IMG/VR virus record: IMGVR_UViG_2529292829_000008
Source of the DNA: a virus
Lineage: Duplodnaviria; Heunggongvirae; Uroviricota; Caudoviricetes
DNA: 25,283 bases
Reading direction: 5' to 3' (one strand)
Shown one piece after another: positions 1 through 2,016 of this stretch. The position numbers were made by a program, and so were the translations under genes. The notes under the pieces were generated by a model. That model saw only the letters and a list, made by a program, of their open reading frames with translations. It was not told where the DNA came from and did no database searches. Numbering within the stretch: position 1 is the stretch's first letter; the number at the start of each line of letters is the position of its first letter.

Positions 1-1053
1 TTACGGGGTAATGCCAACCGCTGCCGCCACTTTGTCGCCACTTGGCAGCGTTGCCAGAGGATTGAAACGGAGCGCCGTTTCCAGATGATCCGGTGCCAGA
101 TGTGCGTAACGCATAGTCATTTTTATATCGTGGTGTCCGAGAATTTTTTGTAAGGCCAGAATGTTTCCACCCGACATCATGAAGTGCGCCGCAAACGTAT
201 GGCGCAGAACGTGTGTGAGTTGACCGCGAGGGAGCACGATAGACGTTTTTTCCATCACGGATAAAAATTGAAAATAGCAGTCTGTGAAGAAATTGAACCC
301 ATCAAGCGCCATGATCTCTTCATAAAGCTCTTTACTGATAGGGATGCTTCTGTTTTTCTTCCCCTTCGTTCTTACAAAGGTAATTCGGTATTTGGTCACC
401 TGTGAGCGGGTAAGATTTACGGCTTCACGCCAGCGTGCGCCTGTGCTTAAGCATATCTTAACTACTAGTGCCAGAATTGGGTCCTGACGTTTGCAATCAG
501 CCAGCAATTCAACAATCTGCTCATGAGTAAGCCATGCCATCTCTTTTTCTGCGATGGTGAATTTTCGCATGTTCTCCAGTGGATTCGGATACGACCATTC
601 GCCCAGGCGGGATAGTTCGCTAAAAACACTACTTAGATAGCTTTGCTCCAGGTTAATGGTGACCGGGCTTGCTCCTTTCTTCCATTTCTCGCTGAAGTAG
701 ATCTCACCTGTCAGGCGTTTATCTCGATAGTGGGCAAACATTTTAGAGGTTAGATCAGTTGCAAGGGGATTGCCCAGAGCGTCAACCATCAGCAGCAATT
801 TGTCATAGACATGCTGCCCGGCAGTCAGAGATTTACCATGTAGTTTGAACCATAGCTCAACCACGTCTTTCAGAGTTCGACGATCCACGGATTCACCCAG
901 CCAGGGCTTTGCTTCGGTTTCTTCCATCGTGTGACGCTCAAAAGCCAGAGCTTCGCCTTTGGTGGTGAATTGTTTACGCACACGACGTCCACTACGTCCG
1001 GCGGGGTAACATTCGCAAAGCCATTTTCCTGTGGTGAGTTTTCGTACTGCCAT
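1..1053 (-). CDS. int: Tyrosine site-specific integrase (P2 Int-like)
   Basis: ORF track 1..1131; N-terminus from Met27 (MAVRKLTTGKW...) aligns with the recalled P2 Int start; C-terminal ...HVLRHTFAAHFMMSGGNILALQKILGHHDIKMTMRYAHL carries the tyrosine-recombinase R..H-x-x-R..Y region; GGAGGG Shine-Dalgarno (SD) before the ATG at 1053. Confidence 0.9.
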   Translation of the reverse strand: MAVRKLTTGKWLCECYPAGRSGRRVRKQFTTKGEALAFERHTMEETEAKPWLGESVDRRTLKDVVELWFKLHGKSLTAGQHVYDKLLLMVDALGNPLATDLTSKMFAHYRDKRLTGEIYFSEKWKKGASPVTINLEQSYLSSVFSELSRLGEWSYPNPLENMRKFTIAEKEMAWLTHEQIVELLADCKRQDPILALVVKICLSTGARWREAVNLTRSQVTKYRITFVRTKGKKNRSIPISKELYEEIMALDGFNFFTDCYFQFLSVMEKTSIVLPRGQLTHVLRHTFAAHFMMSGGNILALQKILGHHDIKMTMRYAHLAPDHLETALRFNPLATLPSGDKVAAAVGITP

Positions 1054-1239
1054 AAAAAATGCCCTCCAATAGAGAGCATTTTTACTGTATGTATAACCAG
1101 TGTCAATGTATGAAATCCTGCGACCATACATCTCACTGAAGCCATAATGAAGTTGGCTATTTTTTGCTATGTGAGTATGTGACTTTTGCGGTTAGCCTGC
1201 GGCTCATTGTTATATTAGGCGCAGATATAAAAGCAAAAT

Positions 1240-1431
1240 TTATCGCGAGTTTTTAGTACAGATTTTTTTTGATTTACTAATAGTTCCATCATTGCAAACG
1301 AACTTTCCATCGGAGGTACAGTGAGAGACACCTCCCTTTTTCCCAGAACAAGGATAATTTTTAGCATAGGTAGTTAGTGGGTTTAATAACAAAGAGCATG
1401 ATAAAACCACAAAAAATACCTTACCAAGCAT
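1240..1431 (-). CDS. Small predicted secreted Cys-containing Lys-rich protein (hypothetical moron)
   Basis: 63-aa ORF with a hydrophobic N-terminal signal-like segment ([23 protein letters not shown]) and a ~40-aa mature part with 4 Cys; AT-rich; lies between cI and int. No family recognised. Confidence 0.4.
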
Positions 1432-1446
1432 AGTTTCCTCCCGGTA

Positions 1447-2016
1447 TTACCTAACGTACTTAATTGTTAAACTTATAATTTTCCCAATTATTTCAACATC
1501 TCCTATCTTGCACTCGAAGGCTCTGTTTCCACCTTCAACGAAGATTCTTCCACCGGGTAAACGAGTAATGTCGCGGATTGTTATTTCGCCATCAATACTT
1601 ATTACCCATTTACCGTCACGTATATCATCAAATTCTTTATCACAAATAAATTCAGAATTGTTATCTGTGATGACAAAAGGTTTTTTAAACGTAGAGGGTA
1701 GAAATCCCTTATCAAAAATATAAAAACCGTCTTCACGCAAGGCACCATCAGATAATACATATTTAGCAACTTCCATAGTATTTGTATTACCTGAAGTTTG
1801 CTTTGAACCATGTCCGGTTGTGAGCCAATTAAGCGAGGTGCCCGTTTCAAGGGCGCACTGGATTACCCATTCTGCTGGGAATGAGTCACGCATGTAGCGT
1901 GTGGCGAGTGTACTTTTAGAGATTCCTAAATGATCGCACAACGCCTGTCGAGTTTTGAATCCATAAGCTTCTACCATGCGCTCTATAGCGCCTCGTCCGC
2001 CTTTCTCCAAATTCAT
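1447..2016 (-). CDS. cI: CI-type immunity repressor (phage 186 CI-like, HTH N-terminal domain)
   Basis: ORF 1447..2022 with likely ATG at 2016 preceded by GGAG; HTH-like segment ...QALCDHLGISKSTLATRYMRD...; sits opposite apl/cII as in 186. No LexA-like S24 Ser-Lys motif seen. Confidence 0.7.
   Translation of the reverse strand: MNLEKGGRGAIERMVEAYGFKTRQALCDHLGISKSTLATRYMRDSFPAEWVIQCALETGTSLNWLTTGHGSKQTSGNTNTMEVAKYVLSDGALREDGFYIFDKGFLPSTFKKPFVITDNNSEFICDKEFDDIRDGKWVISIDGEITIRDITRLPGGRIFVEGGNRAFECKIGDVEIIGKIISLTIKYVR

What the first reader, a model, noticed from the sequence alone, without database searches (positions are those of the whole stretch)
1240..1431. Small secreted cysteine-containing peptide gene wedged between cI and int
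In 186-type phages int directly follows cI; here an AT-rich 63-aa ORF with a signal-peptide-like N-terminus and a 4-Cys, Lys-rich mature part lies between them on the same strand, so it would be expressed from the lysogen with cI and int. It could be a lysogenic-conversion factor (envelope, toxin or exclusion peptide).
Basis: inference. Interest (0 to 1): 0.4.

Follow-up and report, generated by a model that had tools for sequence, protein, structure and literature searches.

The report
Prophage copy of secreted YdcA mini-protein
The small ORF is a real, strongly conserved gene for a tiny secreted, disulfide-rich, positively charged protein of the catalogued but uncharacterised YdcA family; it is carried as cargo behind the repressor gene of a P2/186-like E. 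coli prophage, and its function (perhaps blocking incoming foreign DNA) is untested.

Summary
Bases 1240-1431 on the minus strand encode a 63-aa protein. A GGAGG ribosome-binding site lies 5 nt upstream, and the start codon is 15 nt after the cI stop. The protein has a Sec-type signal peptide and a 40-aa mature part with four Cys and net charge +7.

It is not a new gene. It passes the NCBIfam YdcA-family model NF007463 and matches PHROG 6000. RefSeq annotates it in 632 of 5426 complete E. coli genomes, including E. coli B/BL21. Divergent alleles show dN/dS of 0.02-0.05, and the mature peptide is invariant.

In phage 186, cI overlaps int. Here and in relatives, the cI-int gap is a cargo slot that also holds PD-Lambda-1 and a PDC-S20 NTPase. 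YdcA homologs follow the repressor in the Haemophilus phages HP2/S2 and in Yersinia, Oceanisphaera, Aquabacterium and Thorsellia prophages.

The function is unknown. Three clues point to DNA traffic through the envelope:
- The domain is fused or adjacent to three unrelated secreted nuclease families.
- It sits in the mobilisation operon of 4-kb Acinetobacter plasmids.
- It resembles the lobes of Legionella T4SS subunit Dis2.

My best guess is a lysogen-expressed periplasmic exclusion factor, held at low-to-moderate confidence. The gene is already catalogued and of modest interest.

The parts
1240..1431 (-). CDS of the 63-aa YdcA-family protein precursor, stop codon included
   Evidence: ORF list. 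NCBIfam NF007463 scores 116.1 bits against a cut-off of 93. phrog_6000 hits at E 5e-34. RefSeq annotates it as 'YdcA family protein'. dN/dS is 0.02-0.05.
1363..1431 (-). Predicted Sec/SPase I signal peptide (residues 1-23, [23 protein letters not shown]), with cleavage predicted after T-Y-A
   Evidence: The n-h-c layout can be read from the sequence. Of 80 homologs, 77 have a hydrophobic core plus a -3/-1 site 2-3 residues before the conserved Pro-Cys. All amino-acid changes between E. coli alleles fall at residues 17, 20 and 24. No SignalP run was available.
1243..1362 (-). Mature 40-aa peptide [40 protein letters not shown], with 4 Cys and net charge +7
   Evidence: Alignment A1 shows invariant or nearly invariant P27, C28, S29, G30, K31, K32, G33, G34, V35, H37, C38, F44, C46, D48, G49, S52, S54, K55 and C58. 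The AF2 model has pLDDT 82-89 over this part.
1437..1442 (-). Shine-Dalgarno sequence GGGAGG, 5 nt upstream of the ATG
   Evidence: Read from the sequence.
1447..2016 (-). cI repressor gene (186 type). Its stop codon lies 15 nt upstream of the ydcA-like ATG, so it is the presumed first gene of the lysogenic transcript.
   Evidence: Pfam Phage_CI_repr hits at 2.8e-33 and Phage_CI_C at 2.9e-28. RefSeq coordinates come from the identical prophage. The operon logic comes from the phage 186 annotation: pL drives cI, int and orf69.
1112..1446 (-). Variable cargo slot between the cI stop and the conserved int-upstream region. Here it holds only the ydcA-like gene and its 3' flank.
   Evidence: Homology to Klebsiella phage 4LV2017 stops at about window 1111. 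That phage has a 349-aa ORF in the slot. Phage 813R9 has PD-Lambda-1 there, and E. coli NC101 has YdcA followed by a PDC-S20 KAP NTPase. The left boundary is approximate (1112-1135).
1055..1083 (-). Terminator-like hairpin (13-bp stem, 3-nt loop, U-run) that ends 1 nt before the int ATG and contains the int SD in its 3' arm
   Evidence: RNA folding gives -17.5 kcal/mol and z -5.7, with 0 of 200 shuffles folding as well. It is also present in the longer fold. Phage 813R9 has a different but still pairing stem at the same place.
1..1053 (-). Tyrosine integrase gene (P2/186 type), downstream of the slot
   Evidence: Pfam Int_N hits at 3.2e-32 and Phage_integrase at 7.3e-22. The RefSeq start is at the equivalent of window 1053.

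Best explanation
The ORF is a translated accessory gene ('moron') of a 186-like P2-family prophage. It encodes a phage-borne member of the YdcA family.

Step 1, inferred from architecture. The gene is transcribed with cI from the lysogenic promoter. Its own strong SD, 15 nt after the cI stop, drives translation, so it is made continuously in lysogens.

Step 2, inferred from sequence and family conservation. The precursor is exported by Sec and cut after Ala23. This releases a 40-residue, +7-charged peptide into the periplasm, where its four cysteines form two disulfides. The fold would resemble one lobe of Legionella Dis2.

Step 3, hypothesis. The small cationic domain binds a polyanionic ligand or a conduit in the envelope. 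The most likely target is DNA in transit, or the machinery that carries it. In the lysogen this would hinder entry of foreign DNA, meaning superinfecting phage genomes and possibly conjugative or transforming DNA. That makes it a superinfection-exclusion-type lysogenic conversion function, analogous but not homologous to K139 Glo.

My probabilities: steps 1-2 about 0.85-0.9; step 3 about 0.3.
For: Gene reality and selection:
- Family HMM hits exceed the curated cut-off.
- The gene is present in 632 of 5426 complete E. coli genomes.
- dN/dS is 0.02-0.05, and the mature peptide is invariant at dS of about 0.3.

Expression with cI:
- The gap to cI is 15 nt with a GGAGG SD, and no promoter or terminator is predicted between the two genes.
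- The phage 186 lysogenic operon is annotated from pL.
- In HP2 the homolog's ATG overlaps the cI stop.
- A repressor lies immediately upstream in Yersinia, Thorsellia, Oceanisphaera and Aquabacterium prophages, across three repressor types.

Export:
- 77 of 80 homologs have a signal-peptide layout.
- Signal peptides diverge while the mature part is conserved.

Fold:
- The only PDB relative is Dis2/Lpg0823 (profile E 5.8e-5; Foldseek top hit, probability 0.82).
- A Dis2-like protein carries the YdcA Pfam family PF27300.
- Dis2 lobes are disulfide-pinned and lie next to the outer membrane (PMC8486379).

Link to DNA traffic:
- The YdcA domain is fused, after a signal peptide, to Endonuclease_NS (P0189, P0210, P0145, P0194), SNase (P0100) and a PLD-like domain (PLDc_2; P0205).
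- It lies next to SNase genes on the same strand in 2 of 77 species loci.
- It sits in a TraD-YdcA-hyp operon on 3.9-4.1 kb MOBQ plasmids.
- It has Lys-rich repeat tails in Providencia.
- The core has a median net charge of +4 across 81 homologs.

Slot logic:
- The same cI-int slot carries PD-Lambda-1 and PDC-S20.
- The slot is described as a defence hotspot in K139-like phages (PMC9122126).
- K139 Glo, annotated as a periplasmic exclusion protein, is encoded there.
- In Oceanisphaera, YdcA occupies the Glo position after a BRCT-like ORF.
- Periplasmic nucleases borne on mobile elements are known to block incoming DNA (PMC12378983).
Against: - No experiment on any YdcA-family protein shows DNA binding or exclusion.
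- PADLOC has no model that matches it.
- The nuclease fusions could equally mean that the domain is an envelope anchor or a protein-protein adaptor.
- Dis2 contacts the lipoproteins DotK, DotC and DotD, not the channel (PMC12716638), and Dis2 lobes are acidic with net charge -3.
- Many family members are chromosomal with unrelated neighbours. The K-12-type ydcA lies next to a cytochrome b561 gene.
- The only reported phenotype of chromosomal ydcA is sensitivity of the deletion mutant to 3-hydroxypropionate, together with acid induction (PMC7642389).
- In Moraxella and Acinetobacter phages the homolog sits in the late, structural gene block, not the lysogeny operon.
- Signal-peptide cleavage and disulfides are predicted, not measured.
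Confidence: 0.4

Rival explanations
1. It is an envelope-fitness factor. Like chromosomal ydcA, the phage copy would be a periplasmic stress or envelope-homeostasis protein, for example acting in tolerance of acid or organic acids. It would benefit the lysogen generally and would have nothing to do with incoming DNA.
For: An E. coli W ydcA deletion is more sensitive to 300 mM 3-hydroxypropionate, and ydcA is reported as acid-induced and under YdcI control (PMC7642389). Most family members are chromosomal with heterogeneous neighbours. A cationic peptide could bind phospholipid head groups, LPS or periplasmic glucans.
Against: The phage protein belongs to a different NCBIfam equivalog from K-12 YdcA: NF007462 scores 68 against a cut-off of 118, with 57% identity. 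This reading does not explain the recurrent nuclease fusions and adjacency, the mobilisation-operon context, or the repeated capture directly behind prophage repressors.
Confidence: 0.25
2. It is a protein-protein adaptor or decoy at the outer membrane. As a single Dis2-like lobe, the peptide would dock onto outer-membrane lipoproteins or a trans-envelope machine such as a receptor, secretin, T4SS or Tol-Pal. It would alter that machine's function, for example by masking a phage receptor or entry route, without binding DNA itself.
For: Dis2 is a structural subunit that contacts DotK, DotC and DotD near the outer membrane (PMC8486379, PMC12716638). Sequence and fold similarity link the YdcA domain to Dis2. 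There is one VasL (T6SS) fusion and the TraD-linked plasmid context. Known exclusion factors such as Cor and Llp act by blocking receptors (my own knowledge).
Against: Homology to Dis2 is weak, and loss of Dis2 has only mild effects (PMC12716638). The mature domain is about 75% identical from E. coli to Moraxella and Haemophilus. That argues for a universal ligand rather than a lineage-specific protein partner. The nuclease fusions are explained less directly.
Confidence: 0.15
3. It is a secreted antimicrobial or toxin peptide, meaning a bacteriocin- or defensin-like cationic disulfide peptide released by lysogens to harm competitors or host cells.
For: It is small, cationic and disulfide-rich with a leader, and it is carried on phages and tiny plasmids.
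Against: A Sec signal peptide delivers the product only to the periplasm in a diderm. No immunity, export or lysis partner gene is present in the slot. The family is common as a single chromosomal gene. Fusion to nucleases does not fit an antimicrobial-peptide reading.
Confidence: 0.05
4. It is a spurious or decaying ORF, a chance open frame in AT-rich DNA with no function.
For: It is short and AT-rich. In one genome it is interrupted by ISKpn13 without evident harm.
Against: The family HMM hits exceed curated cut-offs. There are 458 representative clusters. dN/dS is 0.02-0.05 with an invariant mature part. The SD is strong.
Confidence: 0.02

Closest known systems
E. coli K-12 YdcA (b1419) and the YdcA family (NCBIfam PRK10040 models, Pfam PF27300, PHROG 6000)
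   Same: The layout is the same: a Sec signal peptide followed by a domain of about 35 aa with the motif PCSG.KGG[VI]SHC..GKF[VI]CNDG[ST]ISxSKK.C and four Cys. The window protein passes NF007463.
   Different: It belongs to a different equivalog subgroup from the K-12 protein: NF007462 scores below its cut-off, and identity is 57%. It is encoded in a prophage lysogeny operon rather than next to cybB. The family has no established function.
Glo of Vibrio phage K139
   Same: It is encoded in the lysogenic operon of a P2-family phage between cI and int. It has a signal peptide and is annotated as a periplasmic protein involved in phage exclusion (PMC4870250). In an Oceanisphaera prophage, YdcA occupies the equivalent position after a BRCT-like ORF.
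   Different: There is no sequence relationship (hhalign probability 1.2%). Glo is 137 aa and not Cys-rich. No exclusion phenotype has been shown for YdcA.
Dis2 (Lpg0823), outer-membrane-cap subunit of the Legionella Dot/Icm T4SS (PDB 7MUC/7MUD)
   Same: It is the only solved structure with detectable similarity. Each lobe carries CCSKMGG[IV]NYC...G.LVCN[ND]G..S, matching the YdcA motif. It is periplasmic, disulfide-pinned and close to the outer membrane (PMC8486379).
   Different: Dis2 has two lobes, five disulfides and an acidic net charge, and it is a stoichiometric T4SS subunit. The phage protein is a single basic lobe with no T4SS nearby. The similarity is weak.
Periplasmic or secreted nucleases of mobile elements (for example IdeA/SxnA of Vibrio ICEs and Dns of the Campylobacter prophage CJIE1)
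   Same: They are encoded on mobile elements, exported, and act on incoming DNA in the periplasm (PMC12378983). The YdcA domain forms the N-terminal module of Endonuclease_NS, SNase and PLD-type proteins of this kind.
   Different: The window protein has no catalytic domain. It could at most bind DNA, not degrade it.
Lipoprotein or periplasmic superinfection-exclusion factors (Cor, Llp, P1 Sim; recalled from my own knowledge, not tested here)
   Same: They are small, exported, prophage-encoded proteins made in the lysogen that block entry of other phages.
   Different: There is no homology. The window protein has no conserved lipobox: Cys12 lies within the signal peptide and is not conserved.

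Membership tests
YdcA family (NCBIfam NF007463 PRK10040.1-2 / Pfam PF27300 / PHROG 6000) | Scores above the curated cut-off of the family HMM over the full length | tested here: met
   NF007463 gives E 4.2e-34 and 116.1 bits against a cut-off of 93, covering residues 5-63 and profile positions 1-58 of 58. phrog_6000 gives E 4.6e-34 over positions 1-56 of 56.
YdcA family (NCBIfam NF007463 PRK10040.1-2 / Pfam PF27300 / PHROG 6000) | Pfam PF27300 domain | tested here: met
   PF27300 is not in the local Pfam copy, so the direct scan found nothing relevant. It is precomputed for cluster representative P0001, which is 97% identical, and the window protein belongs to that cluster.
YdcA family (NCBIfam NF007463 PRK10040.1-2 / Pfam PF27300 / PHROG 6000) | N-terminal Sec signal peptide followed by a single conserved domain of about 35-40 aa with four Cys | tested here: met
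   Alignment A1 shows the conserved columns. Of 80 homologs, 77 have a hydrophobic core and a -3/-1 site. The four conserved Cys are at positions 28, 38, 46 and 58.
K-12-type YdcA equivalog (NF007462 PRK10040.1-1) | Scores above the equivalog cut-off | tested here: not met
   It scores 68 bits against a cut-off of 118. The phage protein is a paralogous subgroup, not the K-12 ortholog.
Dis2-like T4SS outer-membrane-cap subunits | Two tandem lobes pinned by five disulfides | tested here: not met
   The mature part has a single lobe with 4 Cys. Dis2 is described in PMC8486379.
Dis2-like T4SS outer-membrane-cap subunits | Significant sequence or fold similarity to Dis2 lobes | tested here: inconclusive
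   [not shown]
Periplasmic superinfection-exclusion proteins of P2-family phages (K139 Glo type) | Encoded between cI and int on the lysogenic strand | tested here: met
   for the window, and for K139.
Periplasmic superinfection-exclusion proteins of P2-family phages (K139 Glo type) | Homology to Glo | tested here: not met
   hhalign gives a probability of 1.2%.
Periplasmic superinfection-exclusion proteins of P2-family phages (K139 Glo type) | Confers exclusion of superinfecting phage | not testable with these tools
   This needs plating-efficiency assays on isogenic strains.
Known anti-phage defence proteins (PADLOC-DB v2) | Match to a defence-system model | tested here: not met
   The ORF has 0 hits. 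Slot neighbours in relatives hit PD-Lambda-1 (3e-120) and PDC-S20 (2e-171).
Exclusion lipoproteins (Cor/Llp type) | Lipobox with a conserved +1 Cys at the end of the signal peptide | tested here: not met
   The only candidate is VLSC at residues 9-12. It lies too early, follows Lys4 within 8 residues, and is not conserved in homologs. The family uses an A-x-A type site.

The most novel reading that the evidence does not exclude
The YdcA domain would be a previously unrecognised, widespread periplasmic module that binds DNA, or docks onto a DNA conduit. It would be about 35 aa long, with two disulfides and a cationic surface.

Mobile elements would deploy it in three ways:
- alone, as a lysogen-expressed blocker of incoming phage, conjugative or transforming DNA (this prophage, HP2/S2, and prophages in Yersinia and other genera);
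- fused to secreted nucleases as their substrate-capture domain;
- duplicated, as the Dis2 subunit of the Dot/Icm T4SS.

Because E. coli B/BL21 carries this exact gene, a new superinfection-exclusion mechanism would be sitting in the most widely used laboratory strain.
Probability: 0.25. Interest if true: 0.65.

Novelty: already known. Interest (0 to 1): 0.35.

Why it matters
As a sequence feature the gene is already catalogued. It has NCBIfam, Pfam and PHROG families and a RefSeq annotation in hundreds of genomes. The finding is therefore ordinary as a gene discovery.

What remains open is the function of a very conserved exported mini-protein that about 12% of complete E. coli genomes carry directly behind a prophage repressor. 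The contexts assembled here turn 'function unknown' into a specific, cheap test in E. coli B/BL21 or ATCC 8739. Those contexts are:
- a cargo slot shared with validated anti-phage genes;
- the positional equivalent of the K139 exclusion protein Glo;
- fusion to three unrelated nuclease families;
- placement in plasmid mobilisation operons;
- resemblance to a T4SS subunit that the literature describes as having no homologs.

If the DNA-traffic reading holds, it would add a new small-protein class to superinfection exclusion. It would also give a first functional handle on Dis2 and on the N-terminal domain of many secreted nucleases.

Tried and rejected
- **Local Pfam scan of the ORF.** It gave only sub-threshold noise (GULLO2-like_3rd, PBCV_basic_adap), because PF27300 is newer than the local copy.
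- **DUF3761 relationship.** From memory I suspected a link to a 'C.DG..S.S' motif. No Pfam hit supported it, so I dropped it.
- **PADLOC.** No hit for the ORF.
- **Homology to K139 Glo.** None.
- **Lipoprotein reading.** Rejected, because the VLSC sequence is neither positioned nor conserved as a lipobox.
- **Independent promoter for the ORF.** The only promoter-like site nearby lies inside the ORF (1427-1398), so I did not count it.
- **Intrinsic terminator between cI and the ORF.** None found.
- **IMG/VR scan.** There were 493 hits, but the 80 loci returned were all near-identical E. coli prophages and gave no new context.
- **Literature on 'ydcA'.** Most hits concern unrelated genes of the same name, such as the Bacillus rhomboid YdcA and ORF names on the gonococcal island and F-like plasmids. 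I did not follow these up. Only PMC7642389 concerns the E. coli protein.
- **Nilsson and Haggard-Ljungquist regulatory-region paper (PMC3448106).** My search of it for terms on inserted or extra genes found no mention of the ORF.
- **UniRef name 'Conjugal transfer protein'.** I could not trace it to any experiment. It may stem from the TraD-adjacent plasmid copies.

Full report
**Observation**

Bases 1240-1431 on the minus strand encode 63 aa, [63 protein letters not shown]. It lies between a 186-type cI repressor and a P2/186-type integrase. The repressor (1447-2016/2022) hits Pfam Phage_CI_repr and Phage_CI_C, and the integrase (1-1053) hits Int_N and Phage_integrase. All three genes are on the minus strand.

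The cI stop codon is followed by 15 nt containing GGGAGG, placed 5 nt before the ATG. The pattern scan finds neither a promoter nor a terminator between cI and the ORF.

The predicted precursor has a typical Sec/SPase I signal: Lys4, a 12-residue hydrophobic core, Pro at -6 and T-Y-A at -3 to -1. The predicted mature peptide is 40 aa and 4.26 kDa, with four Cys, 8 Lys and 1 Arg against 2 Asp, and pI 9.6. The ORF is 35% G+C against 50% for the window. The 3' half of cI is similarly AT-rich.

**It is a real gene under purifying selection**

The protein matches NCBIfam NF007463 (PRK10040.1-2) at E 4e-34 and 116 bits, above the curated cut-off of 93, over the whole model. It also matches PHROG 6000 at E 5e-34.

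A search of 5.8 billion proteins returns 64 relatives. Nearly all carry the precomputed Pfam family PF27300, and several are named 'YdcA family protein'. A profile search of 1.84 billion cluster representatives finds 458 clusters at E of 0.001 or better.

RefSeq already annotates the gene as 'YdcA family protein' or 'hypothetical protein'. A DNA search finds it in 632 of 5426 complete E. coli genomes. It is 100% identical in E. coli B, BL21 derivatives, C43(DE3) and ATCC 8739.

Alleles that differ by 3-7% at the DNA level show 10-11 synonymous against 1-2 non-synonymous differences, giving dN/dS of 0.02-0.05. Every amino-acid change (N17S, T20A, K24R) lies in the signal peptide or at the predicted +1 residue. 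Residues 25-63 are invariant at dS of about 0.3.

Across the family the signal peptides diverge freely, while the mature motif PCSGKKGG[VI]SHC..GKF[VI]CNDG[ST]ISKSKK.C is nearly invariant. Of 80 homologs from different species, 77 have a hydrophobic core and a -3/-1 cleavage site 2-3 residues before the conserved Pro-Cys. A lipoprotein reading is rejected, because the VLSC sequence at residues 9-12 is too early and is not conserved.

**Genomic setting**

In phage 186 itself the cI stop overlaps the int start, and the lysogenic operon runs from pL through cI, int and orf69.

In this prophage, homology to other 186-like phages resumes only about 60-80 nt upstream of the int ATG. The interval from about 1112 to 1446 is therefore a cargo slot. 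Related phages fill the same slot differently:
- Klebsiella phage 4LV2017 has a 349-aa ORF.
- Phage vB_EcoM-813R9 has a 558-aa protein that matches PD-Lambda-1 at 3e-120.
- E. coli NC101 has the YdcA gene followed by a KAP NTPase that matches PADLOC candidate PDC-S20 at 2e-171.

In NC101 the cI and cox alleles are different, yet YdcA keeps its place directly behind cI. In strain MB50 the gene is split by ISKpn13.

Rousset et al. (PMC9122126) describe the cI-int interval of K139-like Vibrio phages as a defence hotspot. The K139 record annotates Glo, encoded there, as a periplasmic protein involved in phage exclusion. Glo is not homologous to YdcA.

**The same placement recurs far outside E. coli**

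- The Haemophilus phages HP2 and S2 contain an unannotated 60-aa YdcA homolog whose ATG overlaps the cI stop codon.
- Among 77 species-level loci, Phage_CI repressors lie immediately upstream in 4 and integrases immediately downstream in 5. Three of these loci are in Yersinia species.
- In Thorsellia an S24-type repressor precedes a probably decayed copy.
- In Oceanisphaera the order is S24 repressor, BRCT-like ORF, YdcA, then a 332-aa ORF. This mirrors K139, where the order is cI, orf2 (BRCT), glo, int.
- In Aquabacterium an HTH repressor and an ORF of unknown function precede YdcA at the end of a P2-like prophage, next to gpD.

The context is not universal, however. Moraxella and Acinetobacter phages carry the gene within the structural block. 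The K-12-type chromosomal ydcA sits next to a cytochrome b561 gene. Most other neighbours are heterogeneous.

**Clues to mechanism**

(a) Domain fusions. Among the longer relatives, the YdcA domain follows the signal peptide and precedes one of three unrelated nuclease folds. These are Endonuclease_NS (P0189, P0210, P0145, P0194), staphylococcal-nuclease-like (P0100) and a PLD-like domain (PLDc_2; P0205). There is also one VasL fusion. No other enzyme class recurs.

(b) Gene adjacency. SNase homologs lie next to YdcA on the same strand in two further loci.

(c) Basic extensions. Providencia proteins carry long Lys-rich repeat tails, and one relative has three YdcA domains in tandem. The Cys1-Cys4 core has a median net charge of +4 over 81 homologs.

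(d) Plasmids. Acinetobacter MOBQ plasmids of 3.9-4.1 kb, with only 5-6 genes, carry a TraD, YdcA-like, hypothetical operon. This may explain the UniRef name 'Conjugal transfer protein'.

(f) Literature. Periplasmic nucleases encoded by ICEs and prophages are known to block incoming DNA (PMC12378983). The only phenotype reported for chromosomal ydcA is 3-hydroxypropionate sensitivity of the deletion mutant, together with acid induction (PMC7642389).

**Interpretation**

The following are shown or strongly inferred: a translated, Sec-exported, disulfide-stabilised, cationic mini-protein, encoded as the first cargo gene behind cI and therefore made in lysogens.

The following is hypothesis, at a probability of about 0.3. 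The domain binds DNA, or the machinery that passes DNA through the periplasm. On this reading the phage copy acts as a superinfection-exclusion-type factor.

The main rivals are:
- a general envelope or stress fitness factor (0.25);
- a Dis2-like protein adaptor or decoy at the outer membrane (0.15);
- a secreted antimicrobial peptide (0.05);
- a spurious ORF (0.02).

A 13-bp hairpin followed by a U-run lies directly in front of the int ATG, at 1055-1083 on the minus strand. It folds at -17.5 kcal/mol with z -5.7, and the int Shine-Dalgarno sequence sits in its 3' arm. Phage 813R9 has a different stem sequence that still pairs at the same position. This suggests that the cI-plus-cargo transcript is attenuated before int, and that int translation is masked. 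The ydcA-like gene lies upstream of this structure, so it is tied to cI rather than to int.

**Novelty and score**

The gene and its family are already catalogued, but the function is uncharacterised. The assembled contexts give a concrete hypothesis that can be tested in E. coli B/BL21. I score interest at 0.35. The most novel reading not excluded is a new periplasmic DNA-traffic module shared by prophages, secreted nucleases and Dis2. I give that reading a probability of about 0.25 and an interest of about 0.65 if true.

Noticed in passing
window 1055-1083 (minus strand), with a promoter-like site at 1106-1078: A strong terminator-like hairpin (13-bp stem, U-run, dG -17.5, z -5.7) ends 1 nt before the int ATG and holds the int SD in its 3' arm. 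Phage vB_EcoM-813R9 has a different but still pairing stem at the same spot, which looks like a compensatory change. This suggests attenuation of the lysogenic transcript before int and masking of int translation. A TTGACA-17-AAAAAT promoter-like site overlaps the hairpin.
   Followed up: partly
[not shown]
   Followed up: yes
[not shown]
   Followed up: partly
L006 3591-5267 (phage vB_EcoM-813R9); L172 242-1573 (E. coli NC101); L005 1851-2900 (Klebsiella phage 4LV2017): The cI-int slot of related 186-like prophages carries PD-Lambda-1 (3e-120), or a PDC-S20 KAP NTPase (2e-171) placed after YdcA, or a 349-aa ORF of unknown function. The slot therefore behaves as a defence and cargo hotspot in E. 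coli and Klebsiella phages, as reported for K139-like Vibrio phages.
   Followed up: partly
Proteins P0189, P0210, P0145, P0194, P0100 and P0205; loci L156 6213-6902 and L165 4963-5856: The YdcA domain is fused, after a signal peptide, to Endonuclease_NS, SNase or a PLD-like domain (PLDc_2). It also lies next to SNase genes on the same strand. These are three unrelated nuclease folds sharing one small N-terminal module.
   Followed up: partly
L174 728-904 and L175 640-816 (Acinetobacter plasmids pApiMCR53a and pGFJ6, 3.9-4.1 kb): Tiny MOBQ mobilisable plasmids with only 5-6 genes carry a 58-aa YdcA homolog in an apparent TraD, YdcA, 243-aa ORF operon.
   Followed up: no
L108 4725-7200 (Oceanisphaera submarina): The gene order is S24/HTH repressor, BRCT-like ORF, YdcA, then a 332-aa ORF, all co-oriented with gaps of about 20 nt. 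This mirrors K139, where the order is cI, orf2 (BRCT), glo, int, so YdcA sits where the exclusion protein Glo sits.
   Followed up: partly
L117, L127 and L134 (Providencia species); L118, L123, L126 and others (alpha- and beta-proteobacteria): Family variants exist. Providencia proteins have 100-190-aa Lys-rich tails built of 'KEKATKA(S/T)DKDSAKA' repeats. Many alpha- and beta-proteobacterial proteins have a second Cys-rich basic module, CSCRSG.YCTGPRGG.YC..DSG.KSY.RR.
   Followed up: no
L173 358-1537 (E. coli MB50): The prophage ydcA-like gene is interrupted by an ISKpn13 (IS5-family) insertion. RefSeq marks the remnant as a YdcA-family pseudogene.
   Followed up: no
window 1-3 and loci L168-L171: The window starts exactly at the int stop codon. 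In complete E. coli genomes this prophage end lies about 100 bp from rcdA (ybjK), so the attachment site is just outside the window.
   Followed up: no
window 1054-1131 and 2017-2022: The mechanical ORF list extends int to an upstream ATG at 1131 and cI to a GTG at 2022. RefSeq annotation and homology place the starts at 1053 (MAVRKL...) and 2016 (MNLEKG...).
   Followed up: yes
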